From the sequence record OQ031076: a stretch of 39,499 nt of DNA; one strand, written 5' to 3'. Shown here piece by piece: positions 11,689-23,521 of the stretch (the stretch's first letter is position 1; every line of letters begins with the position of its first letter). The notes beneath the pieces are model-generated. The model made no database searches and was not told the origin of the DNA. It was given only the letters and a program-made list of their open reading frames with translations. The stretch comes from Shigella phage SFP20. Made by a program: the position numbers and the translations under genes.

Positions 11689-14196
<2,508 letters not shown>

Positions 14197-14242: not shown

Positions 14243-14437
14243 ATGATTGAGTTCGACTTCAAGAATGAGGTCCTCAAAGCCTCGCCTATCGTCGGGACCG
14301 CTGCGGCTGATGGTGCCAGTCGGTTCTTCTTTGGGTTAACACTCAACGAATGGTTCTACGTCGCTGCTATCGCGTATACCGTGGTTCAGATTGGCGTACT
14401 GATTTACAAGACGATTAAGAGCGGAGGTAAGACATGA
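14243..14437 (+). CDS. 17.5: holin (gp17.5)
   Basis: 64 aa; near-identical core to T7 gp17.5 (FFGLTLNEWFYVAAIAYTVVQIG). Confidence 0.92.
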   Translation: MIEFDFKNEVLKASPIVGTAAADGASRFFFGLTLNEWFYVAAIAYTVVQIGVLIYKTIKSGGKT

Positions 14438-14697
14438 CGCAGATGGACTTAGAGAAGTTCCTGTTAATGCTGGACACCGAACGTGCTCGACTCATGTTGC
14501 AAGACCTGCGGGATGACTCTAAGCGTTCGCCACAGCTTTACAACGCCATCGAGAAGCTGCTGGCTCGTCACAACTTTGTACTGAGCAAGGTGTCGGTGGA
14601 CGAGAAGCAACTGGCTGACATGGAGGCGCTGAACCGAGAGTACGACAAGGTGCTATCAGCGACCGAGGATAATGACACCGGGTATGGTGTTCAGTAA
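14434..14697 (+). CDS. 18: terminase small subunit (gp18)
   Basis: 87 aa; shares the RSPQLYNAIEKLLARH motif with T7 gp18; ATGA overlap with the holin stop. Confidence 0.9.
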   Translation: MTQMDLEKFLLMLDTERARLMLQDLRDDSKRSPQLYNAIEKLLARHNFVLSKVSVDEKQLADMEALNREYDKVLSATEDNDTGYGVQ

Positions 14698-14801: not shown

Positions 14802-15251
14802 ATGCTCGAACTTTTACGTAAAGCAATCCCGTGGCTGGTTGCAGGACTCCTGTTCTGCTCTGGCTATTGGGTAGCTGATAATAAGTGGGAGGCGAAGGTA
14901 AACAATGAGTACATCACGAAACTTGAGGCACGAGAGAATCAACGGGCTGCTGTCCAAGGTGAAATCGACAAAGTGTCAGCAGAGTGGCAAGACAAGATGT
15001 CCGCGCTGGAAGGCTCTACTGATAGGATTATTGCTGACCTTAACCGCGATAACAAGCGGCTGCGCATCCGAGTCAAACCCACCAGTGGAACAGTCCAGAC
15101 TGACGGTCGATGCGTCATTGATGGTTACGCCGAACTTGACGAACGAGATGCTAAGCGTCTTATCGCCATCGGACTGAAAGGTGACGAATGGATTAAGGCC
15201 CTCCAGAAGACCGTGAGAGCCATGCAGCAAGAGAAGGAGGTGAAACCTTGA
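14802..15251 (+). CDS. 18.5: Rz-like i-spanin (gp18.5)
   Basis: [18 protein letters not shown]... closely matches T7 gp18.5 ([21 protein letters not shown]); start chosen at the ATG at 14802 behind RBS GAGGAGG (the track ORF begins at 14787). Confidence 0.88.
14905..15177 (+). CDS. 18.7: Rz1-like o-spanin lipoprotein (gp18.7), embedded in the +1 frame of 18.5
   Basis: 90 aa; begins MST and contains a lipobox-like [12 protein letters not shown] matching T7 gp18.7 (ATISGCASES); entirely inside gene 18.5. Confidence 0.8.
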   Translation: MSTSRNLRHERINGLLSKVKSTKCQQSGKTRCPRWKALLIGLLLTLTAITSGCASESNPPVEQSRLTVDASLMVTPNLTNEMLSVLSPSD

Positions 15252-17011
15252 GTCAAGACTTAGCAGCGCGTCAGGCGCTTATGACTGCCCGTATGAAGGC
15301 AGACTTCGTGTTCTTCCTGTTCGTTCTGTGGAAAGCTCTGTCACTTCCTGTTCCGACTCGCTGTCAGATTGACATGGCGAAGAAGCTATCGGCTGGGGAC
15401 AACAGGCGCTTCATCTTGCAGGCGTTCCGTGGTATCGGGAAGTCCTTCATTACGTGTGCCTTCGTGGTCTGGAAGCTATGGAATAACCCGGACTTGAAGT
15501 TCATGATTGTGTCGGCCTCAAAGGAACGAGCCGATGCGAACTCAATCTTCATCAAGCGTATCATCGACCTCATGCCTCAGCTCCAAGAGTTGAAGCCTAA
15601 GCAGGGGCAGCGAGACGCAGTAATCAGCTTTGACGTAGGACCTGCCAAGCCTGACCACTCTCCTTCGGTTAAGTCCGTTGGTATCACTGGTCAGTTAACT
15701 GGTAGCCGTGCTGACATCCTGATTGCCGATGACGTAGAGGTCCCCGGTAACTCCGCTACTCAGGCAGCACGGGACCGACTGTCAGAGCTGGTGAAAGAGT
15801 TCGACGCAATCCTGAAGCCGGGTGGTACGGTTATCTATCTGGGTACTCCTCAGACCGAGATGACCTTGTATCGACAGCTTGAAGGTCGTGGTTACTCAAC
15901 TACCATCTGGCCTGCCCGCTACCCACGTGATGAGAAGGACTGGAAGTCTTACGGCGACCGTCTGGCCCCGATGCTTCAGGCCGAGCTTGAGTCCGACCCT
16001 GAGGGCTACTACTGGCTCCCTACCGATGAGGTTCGATTCGACGATGAGGACTTGAGGGAACGTGAGCTGTCTTACGGTAAGGCTGGCTTCGCTCTCCAGT
16101 TCATGCTCAACCCGAACCTTGGTGATGCCGAGAAATACCCGCTGAAGCTGCGTGACCTTATCGTAGCGGACTTGGACCCTGAGTCAAGCCCTATGGTCTA
16201 CCAGTGGCTCCCGAACCTTCAGAACAAGCGTGAGGACGTTCCTAACGTGGGACTCATGGGTGATTCCTACCACACGTATCAGACTGTAGGTTCTGCCTTC
16301 AGTTCGTACACCCAGAAGATTCTGGTCATTGACCCCAGTGGTCGTGGTAAGGATGAGACCGGGTATGCGGTACTGTATCAGCTCAACGGCTACATCTTCG
16401 TGATGGAAGCTGGTGGTATGCGCGGTGGCTATGAGGACTCTACGCTGGAGTCTCTGGCGAAGATTGGTCGCAAGTGGAAGATTAACGAGTACGTCATTGA
16501 GGGTAACTTCGGTGATGGTATGTATCTCGAACTCTTCAAGCCTGTGGCGGCTCGTATTCACCCGGCAGCAGTAACTGAGGTCAAGAGCAAGGGTCAGAAG
16601 GAACTACGCATCTGTGACGTTCTGGAGCCTATCATGGGGTCCCACAGACTCATCGTGAACTCCTCGACCATTGTGTCTGACTACCAGACTGCCGCTGACA
16701 AGGATGGCGTCCGTAACCCTATCTACTCCCTGTTCTACCAGATGACCCGTATCAGCCGTGAACGTGGGGCCTTGGCACACGATGACCGACTTGATGCTCT
16801 GGCTATCGGTGTACAGTTCTTCGTAGAGTCTATGGCTAAGGATGCCGTTAAGGGACAGCGTGAAGTCACCGAGGAGTGGCTGGAGGAACAGATGGAAGAC
16901 CCACGGAAAGGCTTTAAGTCCATCGAGACGGACTACTGGGACAATGGTGTCCGGGTCCAGTTCAATACAGATGATGACTTGGGCTTAGGGTCCTACGTAC
17001 AGTTCCACTAG
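15248..17011 (+). CDS. 19: terminase large subunit (gp19), apparent TTG start
   Basis: 587 aa; extensive identity to T7 gp19 ([134 protein letters not shown]). The track's first codon is TTG at 15248, preceded by RBS AAGGAGG. Confidence 0.95.
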
Positions 17012-17103
17012 CAGTTTGCATAAAGTACCGCTTTAGTTGCATGAATACGCACTATGTAAGTCGGTACATAACGCTCGTAACTCTATGTATTCCTTAGGAA
17101 AAT

Positions 17104-17126
17104 CTTATACCCTCACTATAGGAAAG
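17104..17126 (+). promoter_or_regulatory. phage RNAP promoter (phiOR position), CTTATACCCTCACTATAGGAAAG
   Basis: Promoter family match downstream of gene 19. Confidence 0.8.
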
Positions 17127-17301
17127 ACCCCCCGGTTACTTATAGTAAAGACTCAATGAATAATCATATGCACACTTTATGCAAGACCTTAGGAGGCAGA
17201 CTCCTGAGTTCTTACCTAAGGCTAGCACCGATGGAGAGGGTGATTGTAATCATCACACCCTCATAACTTAAGTAGACCCTAAGCGACAGGAGGTATGTAG
17301 C

Positions 17302-17460
17302 ATGGGTAAGACCAAAGCTGTTCTCAAAGCTCTGGCGATCAATAGAGCTACATACAGGTTTCTTGCTGCTGTTCTACTTGCTACTGGCGTTACTGCTGGA
17401 AGTCAGTGGGTCGGGTGGGTCGAGACTCTCGTATGTACTCTGGTGTCTGAGTGTAATTAA
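17302..17460 (+). CDS. 19.5: small hydrophobic protein (gene 19.5 position)
   Basis: 52 aa ORF (MGKTKAVLKALAINRATYRFLAAVLLATGVTAG...) with RBS GGAGG; below the 60-aa track cut-off; assigned by position. Confidence 0.55.
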   Translation: MGKTKAVLKALAINRATYRFLAAVLLATGVTAGSQWVGWVETLVCTLVSECN

Positions 17461-17492
17461 CGCCATCATGGTAACAATCAACGAAAGACGGA

Positions 17493-17534
17493 CCTAAGGT
17501 CAGTTCATAGCTGACGCTACTCTACTGACCTTAG
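17493..17534. repeat. perfect 10-bp inverted repeat (CTAAGGTCAG / CTGACCTTAG) with about 20-nt loop near the right genome end
   Basis: Read directly; no following T-tract, so not a typical terminator. Confidence 0.6.
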
Positions 17535-17697
17535 CTACTGTAGTCAAGGACTTTAGGTAACACCTTAAGAGAAGCTCACTTAGGGTCATCCTACTCACTG
17601 GTCTGCCCTAGTGTCGCCTGACCTACGGTCCTTGACCTACAGTGGCTGAGGCCTACAGTAGGGACGATGAGTTTTGGACCAAAAGTTTGAGACCACA

Positions 17698-17900
17698 TCT
17701 CACAGTTCAAGAACCTCAAGTCTCCCCATAGGCCCTCTTTCAGTCCAGACCAAAGGCCCTACCCCTAGACCTTCGGTCTAAACCTCAAGTCTTTGACCCG
17801 AAGTCGACCCGAAGTCTGGACCGATAGGGCCTATATCTTGTGGTTGGGACGATGGGTCGGGACTATATGTTGTGTCCTTGAGTCTCTATCTGTATCAGCC
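17698..17900. repeat. probable direct terminal repeat (collapsed to one copy) and physical genome end region
   Basis: TCTCACAGT at 17698-17706 matches the first bases of the T7 left end; CCTTGAGTCTCTATCTGTATC near 17875-17895 resembles the T7 TR end (CCTTGAGTGTCTCTCTGTGTCC). Boundaries approximate. Confidence 0.4.
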
Positions 17901-17905
17901 TCAAG

Positions 17906-18027
17906 TCATCACTACAGTCATCACTACAGTCATCACCTACAGTCAACCAGCCTACAGTCAATCCCTAAGTGATGGCCTACCTACAGTCACCAGACCTACA
18001 GTCAATAGACACCATGTCGACCTACAG
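17906..18027. repeat. array of short direct repeats ending in CCTACAGT (CATCACTACAGT x2, CATCACCTACAGT, and others)
   Basis: Tandem and dispersed ...CTACAGT units; positional analogue of the T7 left-end CCTAAAG repeat series. Similar units at 17620-17660 on the other side of the putative TR. Confidence 0.7.
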
Positions 18028-18241
18028 TTTATCAGAGTCCTAAGGTCTAGACTCACAGGTTATCACATCCGGTCCGTTTAGCAGTCAGAGACCATAGCTG
18101 ACTAGGGTTATTGTTGTTGGTGTCTGCCAACTGGACTCTTATTATCCATAGTCCAGACCTAAAGTCAATCACCTGTAGTCGATAATGGTCTTCCTTATAT
18201 AGTCACTGGACTACTGTATAAATTACCATGATAAATAGTTG

Positions 18242-18270
18242 TTGACAGTAGGTCTAACTTTTGGTTTAAT
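18242..18270 (+). promoter_or_regulatory. sigma70-type early promoter (A1-like): TTGACA, 17 bp, TTTAAT with upstream TG
   Basis: TTGACAGTAGGTCTAACTTTTGGTTTAAT; spacer contains GTCTAAC as in T7 A1. Confidence 0.6.
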
Positions 18271-18399
18271 AGCTTCCGTCAACACGACACGGCAACAACC
18301 GGATAGTGAAGACGCCGGGTCGGTCCGGTTAAGTAGTCAGCCTGTAAGACATACGAAAAACAGGCAACCGACAGCTAGGCGACTAGCGACAGAAAGTAG

Positions 18400-18429
18400 T
18401 TGACAAGATGTACCGACTTAAAGTAGTAT
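18400..18429 (+). promoter_or_regulatory. sigma70-type early promoter (A3-like): TTGACA, 18 bp, TAGTAT
   Basis: Downstream GTACCACATCGAAACGACAGTGAAG is nearly identical to the T7 A3 initial transcribed region (GTACCACATGAAACGACAGTGAG). Confidence 0.7.
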
Positions 18430-18554
18430 GTACCACATCGAAACGACAGTGAAGCCTAACACTGAAACAGGCTAGCGAGGCGACGACAGCCGAGCGAATG
18501 CTCTTTAACAATCTGGATAACTCTTAATGTGCGCCGATAATGCTAGTAAGCGAT

Positions 18555-18625
18555 TAACTCAAGAGACTTGTTGGCTACTGCGGGTCAGGCTCAAGATGAG
18601 CGCCTCAGGTCTCTTTCTGATAATC
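18555..18625 (+). promoter_or_regulatory. putative RNase III site upstream of gene 0.3 (R0.3 position)
   Basis: Preceded by CTCTTTAACAATCTGG, as in T7 upstream of R0.3; AACTCAAG ... TCTCTTTCTGATAATC flanks with internal inverted repeats (AGAGAC/GTCTCT). Confidence 0.5.
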
Positions 18626-18649
18626 ACTCACACTTAAAGGATACACATC

Positions 18650-19102
18650 ATGATTTACACTAACGAACCAGCCAACGTCTTCTATGTGCTCGTGTCTGCC
18701 GCTCGTGCTAACCTGTCTGATATGGCTAACATGGCCCGTCAGTTAGACCTTAAGGCACTGCTGCAAGCCGAACCTGAATACTACGGTGTGCTTGAATGCA
18801 CTGGGCTTACAGGCTGCTACCGCGAGGAGGGACAAGAGGTCGCCACTGAAGAGAGAACCTACCGTGTGCGCTGTGAGTCCAAGGCTCAAGCTATCAACGT
18901 TGCACGACTGGCCTGCAATGACTTTGAGCAAGACTGCGTGATGGTCTACAAGTCTCAGACTCACACGGCTGGACTGATGTTCTGCAAAGGCTTGGACGGG
19001 TTCAAGACCACACGTCTGAACGGGTCATTCCAGCAAGTCGATGCACCAAAGGGCGAATGCTTCACGAAAGACGCTGAAGGGCGCTTCTGGGAGGTGGTGT
19101 AA
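18650..19102 (+). CDS. 0.3: S-adenosylmethionine lyase/hydrolase (T3-type gene 0.3 anti-restriction protein)
   Basis: 150 aa; N-terminus MIYTNEPANVFYVLVSA... and motifs TGCYRE, VYKSQTHTAGL closely match my recollection of the T3 SAMase (about 152 aa); first early gene after the sigma70 promoters. Confidence 0.8.
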   Translation: MIYTNEPANVFYVLVSAARANLSDMANMARQLDLKALLQAEPEYYGVLECTGLTGCYREEGQEVATEERTYRVRCESKAQAINVARLACNDFEQDCVMVYKSQTHTAGLMFCKGLDGFKTTRLNGSFQQVDAPKGECFTKDAEGRFWEVV

Positions 19103-20854: not shown

Positions 20855-23521
20855 ATGAGCGTCATTCAGCTTGAGAAGCACGACTTCTCGGACATCTCCA
20901 ACGCTATCGAGCCGTTTAACATTCTGGCTGACCACTACGGGCAGGACCTCGCAGTCAAACAGCTTCAGCTTGAGCATGAGGCATACACTGAAGGCGAGCG
21001 TCGTTTCATCAAGAATCTTGAGCGTCAGGCTGAGCGCGGGGAGCTGGCTGATAATCAGGTCGCAAGACCACTGATGCAAACTCTGGTCCCTAAACTGGCG
21101 CAAGCCGTCAAGGAGTGGCACGAGACCCAAGGGTCAACCCGTGGTAAACCTCAGGTCGCCTTCCTGAAGCTGAGCACTGAGTCGAAACCTCGTGCGCTAC
21201 TGGTCCAGCCTGAGTCGGTGGCGGTCATCGTCCTGAAGATTGCGCTCTCCAAGCTGGTCAAGCCTGAAGGCGTACCGATTACACCGATGGCCTCCGCGAT
21301 TGGTCGCACACTTGAGGATGAAATCCGCTTCGGTCGCATCCGTGACCAAGAGCAGGAGCACTTCAAGAAGACCATAGCCGAGAACCTGAAGAAACGCGCT
21401 GGCGTGGCCTACAAGAAAGCCTACATGCAAGCGGTCGAAGCCTCCATGCTGGACCAGAAGCAACTGGCTGATGCGTGGGGAACATGGTCGCCTGATGAGG
21501 CTGTACATGTTGGCATCAAGATGCTGGAGCTTCTCATCCAGTCCACACAACTGGTCGAACTGAAGCGCCACAACGCCGGGAACGCAGCGTCAGACGTCGA
21601 GATGGTCCACTTGTCGGACTTCTGGGCCAAGAAGATGGCACAGCGTGGCTACTCACTGGCAGGCATCGCCCCGGTTTACCAGCCTTGTGTCGTGCCTCCA
21701 CGTCCTTGGAACTCGGTGGTCGGTGGCGGGTACTGGGCTAAAGGTCGCAGACCTCTCCCGCTGATGCGCTTAGGGTCGAAGGCCGCTATCGCTCGCTACG
21801 AGGAAGTTTACATGCCTGAAGTCTACGAGGCAGTGAACATCATTCAGCAGACTCCTTGGAAGGTGAACAAGAAGGTTCTGGACGTAGTGAACATGGTCGA
21901 GAAGCTGAACAATACGCCTATCGCTGACATCCCACAGATGGACCCGATGAAACCTGAGGACTACAACGGGGAGACCGAGGAGGAGCTGAAGGCGTGGAAG
22001 AAAGCAGCCGCTGGAATCTATCGCCGCGAGAAGGCCCGACAGTCCCGCCGTTTGTCCCTGAGCTTCATCGTCGGACAGGCGAACAAGTTCTCTCAGTTCA
22101 AGGCCATCTGGTTCCCGTACAACATGGACTGGCGCGGTCGAGTCTACGCGGTCCCGATGTTCAACCCACAGGGCAACGACATGCAAAAGGGTCTACTGAC
22201 TCTGGCAGTCGGCAAGCCAATCGGTGCGGACGGATTCAAGTGGCTTAAGGTCCACGGTGCGAACTGTGCGGGTGTCGATAAAGTCACCTTTGAGGAGCGC
22301 ATCAAGTGGGTGGAAGACAACCATGACAACATTCTCGCAGCCGCGAAGTCTCCGATGGACAGCATCGACTGGTGGGGTCAGTTAGACTCTCCGTTCTGCT
22401 TCCTCGCCTTCTGCTTCGAGTATGCTGGAGTCATGCACCACGGGCTGAGCTACTCCTGCTCTCTGCCTATCGCGTTCGATGGGTCATGCTCTGGGATTCA
22501 GCACTTCAGCGCAATGCTTCGGGACCACGTTGGTGGACATGCGGTCAACCTGACGCCAAGCGGGAAGGTCCAAGACATCTACCGCATCGTGTCTGACGAA
22601 GTGGAGGAGCGACTCAAGGAGCTGCTGGTCAACGGTAGCGACAACGAAGTCAAGACCTTCGAGGACAAGAAGACTGGCGAGATTACTGAACGTCTCATCC
22701 TCGGGACCCGTGAGCTGGCCCGGCAGTGGCTGACCTACGGAATGTCACGCTCGGTCACTAAACGCTCTGTCATGACTCTGGCCTACGGGTCGAAGGAATA
22801 CGGGTTCGCGGACCAAGTGTTCGAGGACACCGTGATGCCAGCGATTGATGCAGGCAAGGGGGCGATGTTCACAGACCCGAGCCAAGCGTCTCGCTTCATG
22901 GCTAAGATGATTTGGGATGCAGTGAGCGTGACTGTGGTAGCTGCGGTGGACGCGATGAAGTGGCTGCAAGGCGCGGCTAAGCTGCTGGCTGCTGAGGTCA
23001 AGGACAAGAAGACCAAAGAGGTCCTGAAGCCGTGCCTCCCGGTTCACTGGGTCACGCCTGATGGCTTCCCGGTCTGGCAGGAGTACCGCAAGAAGGACAC
23101 CACACGTCTGGACCTGATGTTCCTAGGGACTTTCCGTCTGCAACCCACAGTCAACAAAGGGGCGAGCAAGGAGCTGGACAAGCACAAGCAGGAGTCAGGC
23201 ATCAGCCCGAACTTCGTCCACTCACAGGATGGCAGTCACCTGAGGAAGACTGTAGTCCACACTCACCGCAAGTATGGAGTCATGAGCTTTGCGGTCATTC
23301 ATGATAGCTTCGGGACCATCCCGGCAGACGCTGAGTTCCTGTTCAAGGGCGTCCGCGAGACTATGGTCGAGACCTACCGCGACAACGATGTGCTGCAAGA
23401 CTTCTACGAGCAGTTCGCGGACCAGCTTCATGAGACCCAGCGCGATAAGCTGCCTGAGTTACCGAAGCGTGGTAAACTGAACATTGAAGACATTCTGTCA
23501 TCTGACTTTGCATTCGCCTAA
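20855..23521 (+). CDS. 1: single-subunit DNA-dependent RNA polymerase (gene 1)
   Basis: 888 aa; extensive identity to T7/T3 RNAP (LADHYG, GERRF, RFGRIRD, LVELKRHNAGNA, QPCVVPP.PW, IWFPYNMDWRGRVYAVPMFNPQGNDM.KGLLTLA, DSPFCFLAFCFEYAG, FDGSCSGIQHFSAMLRD, RSVTKRSVMTLAYGSKE, HKQESGI.PNFVHSQDGSHLR, IHDSFGT, C-terminal SDFAFA). Confidence 0.98.
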   Translation: MSVIQLEKHDFSDISNAIEPFNILADHYGQDLAVKQLQLEHEAYTEGERRFIKNLERQAERGELADNQVARPLMQTLVPKLAQAVKEWHETQGSTRGKPQVAFLKLSTESKPRALLVQPESVAVIVLKIALSKLVKPEGVPITPMASAIGRTLEDEIRFGRIRDQEQEHFKKTIAENLKKRAGVAYKKAYMQAVEASMLDQKQLADAWGTWSPDEAVHVGIKMLELLIQSTQLVELKRHNAGNAASDVEMVHLSDFWAKKMAQRGYSLAGIAPVYQPCVVPPRPWNSVVGGGYWAKGRRPLPLMRLGSKAAIARYEEVYMPEVYEAVNIIQQTPWKVNKKVLDVVNMVEKLNNTPIADIPQMDPMKPEDYNGETEEELKAWKKAAAGIYRREKARQSRRLSLSFIVGQANKFSQFKAIWFPYNMDWRGRVYAVPMFNPQGNDMQKGLLTLAVGKPIGADGFKWLKVHGANCAGVDKVTFEERIKWVEDNHDNILAAAKSPMDSIDWWGQLDSPFCFLAFCFEYAGVMHHGLSYSCSLPIAFDGSCSGIQHFSAMLRDHVGGHAVNLTPSGKVQDIYRIVSDEVEERLKELLVNGSDNEVKTFEDKKTGEITERLILGTRELARQWLTYGMSRSVTKRSVMTLAYGSKEYGFADQVFEDTVMPAIDAGKGAMFTDPSQASRFMAKMIWDAVSVTVVAAVDAMKWLQGAAKLLAAEVKDKKTKEVLKPCLPVHWVTPDGFPVWQEYRKKDTTRLDLMFLGTFRLQPTVNKGASKELDKHKQESGISPNFVHSQDGSHLRKTVVHTHRKYGVMSFAVIHDSFGTIPADAEFLFKGVRETMVETYRDNDVLQDFYEQFADQLHETQRDKLPELPKRGKLNIEDILSSDFAFA

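What the first reader, a model, noticed from the sequence alone, without database searches (positions are those of the whole stretch)
17461..18240. Genome-end region with T7-like left-end signature and CCTACAGT repeat series
TCTCACAGT (17698) and CCTTGAGTCTCTATCTGTATC (about 17875) mirror the start and end of the T7 160-bp terminal repeat. On both sides are arrays of short units ending in CCTACAGT (17620-17660 and 17906-18027), positionally equivalent to the T7 CCTAAAG repeats implicated in concatemer processing. The repeat unit has diverged from T7 while the architecture is retained.
Basis: partly seen in the sequence, partly recalled or inferred. Interest (0 to 1): 0.55.

Follow-up and report, generated by a model that had tools for sequence, protein, structure and literature searches.

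The report
Collapsed terminal repeat of K1F-like phage
This stretch is the joined-up genome end of a T7-family (K1F-like) phage, with one copy of its 190-base terminal repeat flanked by short repeat arrays; that layout is already known, but the repeat units here match a short palindrome that is unusually abundant across this phage genus.

Summary
The window is a circularly permuted Kayfunavirus (K1F-like) genome, 95.6% identical to Shigella phage SFP21B. Positions 17461-18240 are its concatemer junction. By homology to ends mapped or annotated in relatives (SH4/SH5 by run-off sequencing, Ro45lw, Pisces, IMM-002, K1F), the terminal repeat is 17698-17887 (190 bp). It starts TCTCACAGT and ends GAGTCTCT.

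One correction. Its ATCTGTA part (17888-17894) matches 6 of 7 bases of T7's ATCTGTT concatemer-junction pause signal and is invariant in 20 Kayfunavirus sequences.

CCTACAGT occurs 7 times in this region, all on the + strand, against about 0.04 expected. The right-hand array varies from 4 to 11 units among relatives. The left-hand units sit in a strongly conserved 200-bp block that begins with a hairpin.

All of this is the known T7/T3/K1F architecture, so it is a new member of a known kind. What the arrays do remains untested, even in T7.

One unexpected extra: the units fit GAC-N5-GTC. That palindrome occurs 84 times in this genome (about 16 expected) and 80 times in K1F, but is not enriched in T7, T3 or K11.

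The parts
17108..17123 (+). Phage RNA polymerase promoter between gene 19 and gene 19.5, the counterpart of T7/T3 phiOR. It is the nearest upstream source of transcripts that would run into the junction.
   Evidence: TACCCTCACTATAGGA is one of 11 same-strand promoter-like sites against 0.23 expected. T7, T3 and K11 annotate phiOR at the same place.
17302..17460 (+). Gene 19.5-like ORF (52 aa), the last gene before the genome's right end.
   Evidence: Read. It gives a weak match to T7 gp19.5 (E = 5e-05). Terminase large subunit lies just upstream at 15248-17011.
17489..17697 (+). Right-end unique block, non-coding and strongly conserved. It is the candidate region for the terminase recognition signal (pacB-like).
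   Evidence: Identity is 0.83-1.0 with no gaps across 13 relatives, higher than in the interior of the terminal repeat. Sequence upstream of 17489 differs between relatives. No ORF longer than 44 aa.
17492..17536 (.). Hairpin / inverted repeat at the left edge of the conserved block. The perfect 11-bp arms are at 17494-17504 and 17524-17534.
   Evidence: The arms are invariant in 22 Kayfunavirus sequences while the loop has three unrelated alleles. T7, T3 and K11 carry an inverted repeat of different sequence (AGGGATTC...CATCCCT) at the same place, 145-190 nt left of the repeat.
17620..17661 (+). Left-hand short-repeat units: GACCTACGGTC, then CCTACAGT twice. This is the counterpart of the T7 right-end repeat array.
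   Evidence: The units are conserved and gap-free in relatives.
17698..17887 (+). Direct terminal repeat, 190 bp. One copy is present here because the assembly collapsed the two ends. Virion DNA should begin at 17698 and end at 17887.
   Evidence: Ends of close relatives were mapped by run-off sequencing (PMC4925675).
17888..17894 (+). ATCTGTA (TATCTGTA from 17887), immediately right of the repeat. It is the counterpart of the T7 class II concatemer-junction pause signal ATCTGTT.
   Evidence: Same position in T7, T3, phiYeO3-12 and K11; K11 annotates a 'concatemeric junction' there. TATCTGTA is present in all 20 Kayfunavirus sequences that extend past the repeat.
17897..18046 (+). Right-hand short-repeat array: CCTCAAGT, CTACAGT twice, CCTACAGT five times, CCTAAGGT, spaced 12-29 bp. 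This is the counterpart of the T7 left-end CCTAAAG array.
   Evidence: Unit number and subtype vary among relatives.
18156..18180 (+). Two outlying units, GACCTAAAGTC and ACCTGTAGTC.
18242..18429 (+). Host-type early promoters. TTGACA-17-TTTAAT at 18242 aligns with T7 A1. TTGACA-18-TAGTAT lies at 18400-18429.
   Evidence: and reading. The gene 0.3 SAM hydrolase starts at 18650.

Best explanation
The segment is the concatemer junction of a K1F-like (Kayfunavirus) member of the T7 group, captured because the assembler joined the two genome ends through their shared repeat.

Layout: the right-end unique sequence (17461-17697), one copy of the 190-bp direct terminal repeat (17698-17887), then the left-end unique sequence (17888 to about 18240), which leads into the early promoters.

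Inferred working, following the T7/T3 paradigm:
- Replicated genomes join head to tail through the repeat.
- Phage RNA polymerase, transcribing from the phiOR-like promoter at 17108, reads through the junction and pauses at ATCTGTA just past the repeat.
- The paused polymerase helps recruit the terminase (gp18/gp19) and prohead.
- Terminase recognises sequence in the conserved block left of the repeat and cuts at 17697/17698 and 17887/17888.
- The repeat is duplicated by repair synthesis, possibly through the conserved hairpin, so that every virion DNA carries it at both ends.

The short same-strand units on both sides are most likely repeated protein-binding sites that assist this process. 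That last step has not been demonstrated in any T7-group phage.

Shown here: the identity and boundaries of the repeat by homology to mapped ends, the conservation pattern, and the statistics of the arrays. Inferred: pausing, terminase recognition, and the function of the units.
For: Context:
- Terminase large subunit lies at 15248-17011, the gene 19.5-like ORF at 17302-17460, the SAM hydrolase gene from 18650, and RNA polymerase at 20855-23521.
- The genome is 95.6% identical to Shigella phage SFP21B.

Ends:
- K1F starts at the base matching 17698 and ends one base short of 17887.
- Ro45lw, Pisces, IMM-002, MopsHU1 and SH4/SH5 annotate terminal repeats that match 17698-17887 end to end.
- Four isolate contigs stop at ...GAGTC(T/C)CT.
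- The SH3/SH4/SH5 ends were mapped by run-off sequencing (PMC4925675).
- Four genera share the start TCTCA(C/T)AGT and the end ...GTC(C/T)CT followed by ATCTGT(T/A).

Pause signal:
- It is invariant in the genus.
- T7 ATCTGTT is a class II signal at the concatemer junction (bioRxiv 10.1101/2021.01.11.426313; 10.64898/2026.02.12.705533).
- In T7 the polymerase-lysozyme complex pauses there and interacts with gp18/gp19 (PMC3276506, citing Zhang and Studier 2004).
- gp18 recognises PacB and gp19 cuts PacC (PMC9860248).

Arrays and conservation:
- Array statistics are, and array variation.
- The 200 bp left of the repeat are the best conserved non-coding stretch.
Against: - Only one copy of the repeat is in the window, so terminal redundancy of this particular phage is inferred, not seen.
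- ATCTGTA differs from the T7 heptamer at its last base. For T7 polymerase any base change is reported to abolish class II termination (bioRxiv 10.1101/2021.01.11.426313), so pausing would require a cognate polymerase with slightly different specificity.
- The right-hand array varies from 4 to 11 units with mixed subtypes, which argues against a strict requirement for any particular array.
- No experiment on the function of the arrays was found for any T7-group phage.
Confidence: 0.88

Rival explanations
1. The flanking units are not T7-type packaging accessories as such. They are a local cluster of binding sites for a genus-specific factor that recognises the palindrome GAC-N5-GTC all over the genome. 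The factor could be the small terminase or another DNA-binding or DNA-acting protein. On this reading the ends are simply its densest site cluster.
For: - GAC-N5-GTC occurs 84 times in the window against 16.1 +/- 3.6 in shuffles.
- It is the top outlier of an unbiased scan of all trinucleotide palindromes with spacers of 0-15 (z = 15.7; next best 6.6).
- Other spacers give about 15 sites.
- A codon-permuted null gives 27.5 +/- 3.4, and the sites lie in all three reading frames.
- K1F has 80 sites (z = 16.9), and partial genomes of four relatives have the same density.
- T7 has 14, T3 has 11 and K11 has 21, none enriched.
- Core bases of the sites diverge 7.3% in relatives, against 13.2% for the N5 spacer and 16.3% for the flanks.
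- The junction holds 9 full sites in the window and 8 in K1F, against 0 in T7, T3 and K11. The generic CCW-N3-G unit count is similar in all five.
Against: - Only some array units are full sites. The commonest unit, (A)CCTACAGTC, fits only the relaxed AC-N5-GTC form.
- No candidate protein was identified.
- The palindrome has no polarity, whereas the array units are strictly co-oriented.
- No literature was found on the motif.
Confidence: 0.3
2. The right-hand array is largely neutral, slippage-prone spacer DNA between the repeat and the early promoters. It is kept only as filler and has no sequence-specific role.
For: - Unit number varies from 4 to 11 among close relatives, with obvious tandem expansions: five copies of CCATAGGTCTCAACAA in L005 and five of CCTACAGTCCTACAA in L011.
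- The region has low identity and many gaps.
- Yersinia T7-like phages vary from 11 to 34 repeats at the same place (PMC5923468).
Against: - Arrays of the same unit family, on the same strand and at the same two positions, persist in four genera (T7, T3, K11, Kayfunavirus) although the surrounding sequence is not alignable between them.
- The left-hand units are strongly conserved.
Confidence: 0.2
3. The hairpin and the repeats act mainly in DNA replication rather than in terminase recognition. They could form a secondary origin driven by the phiOR-like promoter, act as primase start sites (GTC), or support hairpin-primed duplication of the terminal repeat.
For: - A hairpin DNA end containing the repeat is reported during T7 infection and features in models of repeat duplication (PMC4281155, citing the Chung and Hinkle papers).
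- The hairpin position is conserved in four genera.
- AGTC is five-fold enriched in the region.
Against: - The two bases before GTC in the units (CA, AA, AG) do not match the preferred T7 primase sites (GGGTC, TGGTC, GTGTC; my own knowledge).
- The region contains no obvious AT-rich unwinding element.
- Nothing here separates a replication role from a packaging role.
Confidence: 0.15
4. The similarity to T7 ends is coincidental and the real ends lie elsewhere, or the genome is packaged headful and is circularly permuted.
For: The window itself shows only one copy and no physical end. TCTCACAGT alone is not significant.
Against: At least seven independent records of relatives start or end exactly at the homologous bases, several with experimental or read-based mapping (PMC4925675). 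The match to the T7 repeat start has z = 7.1.
Confidence: 0.03

Closest known systems
Phage T7 concatemer junction: 160-bp terminal repeat, flanking CCTAAAG repeat arrays and the class II pause site
   Same: - Same position, between gene 19.5 and the early promoters.
- Same first nine bases, TCTCACAGT.
- The repeat end ...GTC(C/T)CT is followed directly by ATCTGT.
- Co-oriented short units of 7-8 bases lie on both sides and inside the repeat.
- An inverted repeat lies about 190 nt left of the repeat.
- A phiOR promoter lies upstream.
   Different: - The repeat is 190 bp, not 160 bp.
- Only the first 35 nt and the last 20 nt or so are alignable.
- The unit is CCTACAGT(C) rather than CCTAAAG.
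- The pause heptamer is ATCTGTA rather than ATCTGTT.
- No phiOL-type phage promoter lies between the array and the early promoters.
- The units carry the genus-specific GAC-N5-GTC pattern that T7 lacks.
Terminal repeats of Kayfunavirus phages (K1F 178-179 bp; SH3 183 bp; SH4/SH5 190 bp; Ro45lw, Pisces 190 bp)
   Same: Direct homologues. Identity over the repeat is 85-98%, the boundaries are identical, TATCTGTA is the same, and the conserved left block and hairpin arms are the same.
   Different: The window is not identical to any record; the best match is SFP21B at 95.6%. Its right-hand array has its own unit count and order, including two CATCACTACAGT copies. An 11-bp tandem duplication lies inside the repeat at 17795-17816.
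Phage T3 / T7 packaging signal (PacB recognised by gp18, PacC cut by gp19)
   Same: The window has the same gene set (gp18 at 14434-14697, gp19 at 15248-17011) and the same junction layout. The first 100 nt of the repeat align well with T3 (z = 25.6).
   Different: The positions of PacB and PacC were not available in the papers I could read. Their assignment to 17489-17697 and to the repeat boundaries is inference.
Repeat arrays next to the terminal repeats of Yersinia T7-like fPS phages (PMC5923468)
   Same: Arrays lie between the left repeat and the first promoter and between the last promoter and the right repeat, and copy number varies among near-identical isolates.
   Different: They belong to a different genus with different unit sequences. 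I did not examine their sequences.

Membership tests
T7-group (Studiervirinae) short direct terminal repeat / concatemer junction | Lies between the last late genes (19, 19.5) and the early promoters and gene 0.3, in a co-linear T7-like genome | tested here: met
T7-group (Studiervirinae) short direct terminal repeat / concatemer junction | Repeat starts TCTCA(C/T)AGT and ends ...GTC(C/T)CT | tested here: met
   Table of T7, T3, phiYeO3-12, K11, K1F, Ro45lw, Pisces, MopsHU1 and the window; alignment A1
T7-group (Studiervirinae) short direct terminal repeat / concatemer junction | The same sequence is present at both physical ends of virion DNA | not testable with these tools
   The window holds one collapsed copy. 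Shown experimentally for the relatives SH3/SH4/SH5 (PMC4925675) and present at both ends of the K1F, Ro45lw and IMM-002 records.
T7-group (Studiervirinae) short direct terminal repeat / concatemer junction | Non-coding | tested here: met
   The longest ORF is 69 aa and is a translation of the repeats. No Rfam family matched.
T7 class II (concatemer-junction) pause/termination signal | Heptamer ATCTGTT on the non-template strand | tested here: not met
   The window has ATCTGTA, 6 of 7. For T7 polymerase any base change is reported to abolish termination (bioRxiv 10.1101/2021.01.11.426313). The variant is invariant in the genus, so it may serve the cognate polymerase.
T7 class II (concatemer-junction) pause/termination signal | Preceded by A, C or T, and located immediately right of the terminal repeat on the strand transcribed from phiOR | tested here: met
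   TATCTGTA lies at 17887-17894 on the + strand, with the promoter at 17108 on the + strand. The requirement is stated in bioRxiv 10.64898/2026.02.12.705533.
T7 class II (concatemer-junction) pause/termination signal | RNA polymerase pauses 6-8 nt downstream | not testable with these tools
   Needs in vitro transcription with the cognate polymerase
T7 CCTAAAG repeat arrays flanking the terminal repeat | Arrays of co-oriented short units immediately next to the repeat on both sides | tested here: met
T7 CCTAAAG repeat arrays flanking the terminal repeat | Unit sequence CCTAAAG | tested here: not met
   The main unit is CCTACAGT. Only one CCTAAAGT occurs, at 18158. This is a diverged unit within the same architecture.
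Headful (pac) or cohesive-end (cos) packaging site | Permuted ends, or single-stranded cohesive ends without a duplicated repeat | tested here: not met
   Relatives have exact ends with a 179-195 bp direct repeat (PMC4925675)

The most novel reading that the evidence does not exclude
In Kayfunavirus the T7-type end repeats have been retuned to carry a genus-specific palindrome, GAC-N5-GTC. That palindrome is also scattered about 80 times through the coding genome, in all reading frames, and is kept by selection. This would point to an undescribed sequence-specific DNA-binding or DNA-acting factor whose densest site cluster is the concatemer junction. The factor could be the small terminase or a genus-specific protein. 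If so, packaging or end processing would be linked to a genome-wide 'self' mark absent from T7, T3 and K11.
Probability: 0.3. Interest if true: 0.6.

Novelty: new member of a known kind. Interest (0 to 1): 0.3.

Why it matters
For this genome the result fixes the true ends. Virion DNA should run from 17698 round to 17887, giving about 39,689 bp with a 190-bp repeat at each end. That allows the record to be re-oriented and annotated correctly, and it matters for rebooting or engineering the phage.

The architecture itself is textbook T7 biology and adds nothing new. The part that could matter more is the side observation. The end-repeat units of this genus coincide with a palindrome that is eight-fold over-represented and conserved throughout Kayfunavirus genomes, but not in T7, T3 or K11. 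If a protein reads that motif, it would give a first experimental handle on what the long-unexplained repeats beside T7-group terminal repeats do.

Tried and rejected
- Translation error. I first translated the gene 19.5-like ORF one base out of frame (no family, no match). The correct frame, 17302-17460, gives a weak match to T7 gp19.5.
- Papers not held. The K1F genome paper, the phiYeO3-12 paper and Nayak 2008 are not in the library. K1F's repeat length comes from the record (178 bp) and from PMC4925675 (179 bp).
- Literature search for CCTAAAG plus 'terminal repeat' returned nothing relevant. I could not confirm from a paper that the T7 arrays act in concatemer processing.
- Search for a phiOL-type phage promoter between the array and the early promoters found none within 3 mismatches.
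- An Rfam scan of 16900-18800 gave one chance-level hit (E = 0.19).
- ORFs in the region are all short. The 69-aa one is a translation of the repeats.
- Covariation test of the hairpin was not informative, because the arms are invariant. The evidence is instead that the loop has been replaced while the arms are kept.
- Codon usage as the cause of the GAC-N5-GTC excess is rejected. The reasons are the spacer control (in-phase spacers 0, 6 and 9 are much lower), the codon permutation (27.5 against 84) and the spread over all three frames.
- T7-type primase sites as the explanation for the motif are rejected. The bases before GTC do not match the T7 preferences (logo; preferences from my own knowledge), and T7 itself lacks the enrichment.
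- A PHROG scan of ten small or unassigned proteins gave no DNA-binding candidate for the motif.

Full report
**What the window is.** All long ORFs lie on the + strand in T7 order. These include the major capsid protein (1-1050), small terminase (14434-14697), spanin, large terminase (15248-17011), SAM hydrolase (18650-19102), protein kinase and a single-subunit RNA polymerase (20855-23521). The first 25 kb are 95.6% identical to Shigella phage SFP21B. They are 92-95% identical to SFP21A, SFPH2, Citrobacter phage SH4 and Cronobacter phage Dev2, all Kayfunavirus (K1F-like Studiervirinae). The window starts at the capsid ATG and contains the late-to-early gene junction internally. It is therefore a circularly permuted assembly of a linear genome. 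PhageTerm's authors note that assemblers place the first base of such genomes arbitrarily (PMC5557969).

**The observation.**
- TCTCACAGT is at 17698 and occurs once.
- CCTTGAGTCTCTATCTGTATC is at 17876-17896.
- CCTACAGT occurs 11 times in the window against 1.64 expected. Seven of these lie at 17636-18028, all on the + strand.
- Against the rest-of-genome rate the region expects 0.04 per strand (P = 3e-14).
- Two more units read CTACAGT (17912, 17924). Tandem Repeats Finder reports 12-15 bp periods over 17896-18010.
- The region has no ORF above 69 aa and no Rfam match.

**Where the terminal repeat is.** The K1F record begins with the sequence at window 17698, and its two ends share 178 bp. 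The K1F junction, rebuilt from its two ends, aligns co-linearly with window 17491-18012.

A search with window 17698-17887 matched end to end the annotated terminal repeats of these phages:
- Ro45lw (1-190)
- Pisces (1-190, PhageTerm)
- MopsHU1 (1-195)
- vB_EcoP-Ro103C3lw (1-191)
- IMM-002 (1-189), unannotated, matched at both ends of the record

SH4 and SH5 annotate 1-191. Their ends were mapped by run-off Sanger sequencing, which gave 190 bp; SH3 gave 183 bp (PMC4925675). Four isolate contigs in IMG/VR stop exactly at ...GAGTC(T/C)CT.

A table of eight phages from four genera shows the same boundaries. Every repeat starts TCTCA(C/T)AGT, ends ...GTC(C/T)CT and is followed at once by ATCTGT(T/A). 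The repeat in the window is therefore 17698-17887, 190 bp.

That alignment is 12 nt out of register with the one fixed by the mapped ends. Only CCTTGAGTCTCT belongs to the repeat.

**Significance of the T7 similarity.** In local alignment of the repeat against T7, the first 35 nt match at 28/35 (z = 7.1, 0 of 1000 dinucleotide shuffles). T3 gives z = 25.6 over about 100 nt. K11 matches the last 33 nt (z = 8.9). K1F gives z = 56.

**The base after the repeat.** In T7 the heptamer ATCTGTT follows the repeat directly. It is the class II pause/termination signal at the concatemer junction (bioRxiv 10.1101/2021.01.11.426313; 10.64898/2026.02.12.705533). The polymerase-lysozyme complex paused there interacts with gp18/gp19 to start maturation (PMC3276506, citing Zhang and Studier 2004). 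K11's record annotates a 'concatemeric junction' at the same spot.

The window has ATCTGTA at 17888-17894. TATCTGTA is present in all 20 Kayfunavirus sequences that extend past the repeat, although the sequence on either side varies. The nearest upstream phage promoter is at 17108-17123, one of 11 such sites, and no phiOL-type promoter lies downstream. I infer a pause site for the cognate polymerase. The last base differs from the T7 heptamer, and T7 polymerase is reported not to tolerate any change, so this step is not shown.

**The flanks.** Aligning 14 junctions gives a clear conservation pattern:
- 17518-17757 is 0.83-1.0 identical and gap-free. This covers about 180 bp left of the repeat and the repeat's first 60 bp. 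The 27 bases around 17698 were used to fetch these loci, so that stretch is biased.
- The interior of the repeat is 0.53-0.79 identical.
- The last 20 bases and the pause site are 0.9 identical.
- The right-hand array is 0.37-0.8 identical, with many gaps.

The right array holds 4-11 units in relatives. The units are mixtures of CCTACAGT, CCATAGGT, CCATAAGT and CCTCAAGT, with plain tandem expansions. Yersinia T7-like phages show the same behaviour (PMC5923468).

The left units (17620-17661) do not vary. The conserved block starts at 17489 with a hairpin. Its 11-bp arms are invariant while its loop has three unrelated alleles, and the sequence upstream differs entirely between relatives. T7, T3 and K11 have an inverted repeat of different sequence (AGGGATTC...CATCCCT) 145-190 nt left of their repeats. 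A hairpin DNA end is reported as a T7 processing intermediate (PMC4281155). I recall that it maps to this neighbourhood, but I could not check that.

**How it most likely works.**

Shown here:
- the repeat boundaries by homology to mapped ends
- the conservation pattern
- the array statistics

Established for T7/T3 and transferred by homology:
- Concatemers form through the repeat.
- gp18 recognises PacB and gp19 cuts PacC (PMC9860248).
- The polymerase pauses at the junction.
- The repeat is regenerated by synthesis from staggered nicks (PMC5557969).

Inferred:
- PacB lies in 17489-17697.
- The cuts fall at 17697/17698 and 17887/17888.
- The short units are protein-binding sites that assist processing.

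Nothing I could read tests the arrays in any T7-group phage.

**An unexpected extra.** While defining the unit I found that its skeleton, (G)AC-N5-GTC, is abundant across the whole genome.
- GACNNNNNGTC occurs 84 times against 16.1 +/- 3.6 in shuffles.
- Other spacers give about 15 sites, spacer 6 gives 44 and spacer 3 gives none.
- In an unbiased scan of all trinucleotide palindromes with spacers 0-15 it is the top outlier (z = 15.7; next best 6.6).
- Permuting codons within genes gives 27.5 +/- 3.4, and the sites lie in all three frames.
- K1F has 80 sites (z = 16.9), and four partial relatives have the same density.
- T7 (14), T3 (11) and K11 (21) are not enriched.
- In alignments to 15 relatives the six core bases differ at 7.3%, the spacer at 13.2%, the flanks at 16.3% and the rest of the genome at 12.8%.
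- The junction holds 9 full sites in the window and 8 in K1F, against none in T7, T3 or K11. Generic CCW-N3-G units are equally common in all five.

The divergence also coincides with a genus-wide, conserved motif of unknown function. I found no literature on it and no candidate protein.

**Verdict.** The finding is real and correctly interpreted, with the repeat boundary and the pause site corrected. It is a new member of a well-known kind, and its interest rests mainly on the GAC-N5-GTC side observation.

Noticed in passing
whole window (84 sites; list): The palindrome GAC-N5-GTC is about 5-fold (shuffles) to 8-fold (uniform expectation) over-represented. It lies in all three reading frames, and its core bases are conserved relative to its spacer and flanks. 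The same holds in K1F and four other Kayfunavirus sequences, but not in T7, T3 or K11. Its function is unknown.
   Followed up: partly
whole window; also L044 (T7), L045 (T3), L046 (K1F), L047 (K11): GAC-N3-GTC is absent from the window and K1F and occurs once each in T7 and T3, where other spacers give 10-20 sites. K11 has 11. Several 6-bp palindromes (CTGCAG, CAGCTG, TGATCA) are also absent from the window. This is probably restriction-site avoidance.
   Followed up: no
17492-17536: A hairpin with perfect 11-bp arms marks the start of the conserved right-end block. The arms are invariant in 22 relatives and the loop has three unrelated alleles. T7, T3 and K11 carry a different-sequence inverted repeat at the equivalent position.
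   Followed up: partly
17529-17558 and 17621-17651: A second, imperfect inverted repeat of about 30 nt with a 62-nt spacer is built from oppositely oriented repeat units. The 240-nt strand folds better than shuffles (z = -3.2).
   Followed up: no
17888-18640: No phage-polymerase promoter (phiOL equivalent) lies between the right-hand array and the early promoters. T7, T3 and K11 all annotate one there.
   Followed up: partly
18168-18141 (- strand): A leftward host-type promoter-like site (TTGACT-16-GATAAT, 10/12) recalls the leftward A0 promoter of T7/T3. The reverse complement of the unit tail AGTCAA supplies TTGACT.
   Followed up: no
17795-17816: An exact 11-bp tandem duplication (GACCCGAAGTC twice) lies inside the terminal repeat. 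Repeat length in the genus ranges from about 179 to about 231 bp through such internal unit changes.
   Followed up: partly
11845-11852 (+ strand): A perfect T7-type class II consensus, TATCTGTT, lies on the coding strand inside the tail-fibre gene. The count is not above chance (3 found against 1.5 expected).
   Followed up: no
public records OR786095 (Staphylococcus phage MBBL139), PQ520054 (Enterococcus phage IME_EF3), PV615262 (Acinetobacter phage vB_Aba_01KA): Records named for unrelated hosts carry this Kayfunavirus junction at 77-94% identity. They are likely mislabelled or contaminated.
   Followed up: no
window 1 and 39499: The window starts exactly at the capsid gene ATG, the same rotation as the SFP21A and SFP21B records. 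This suggests one assembly or re-orientation convention rather than biology.
   Followed up: no
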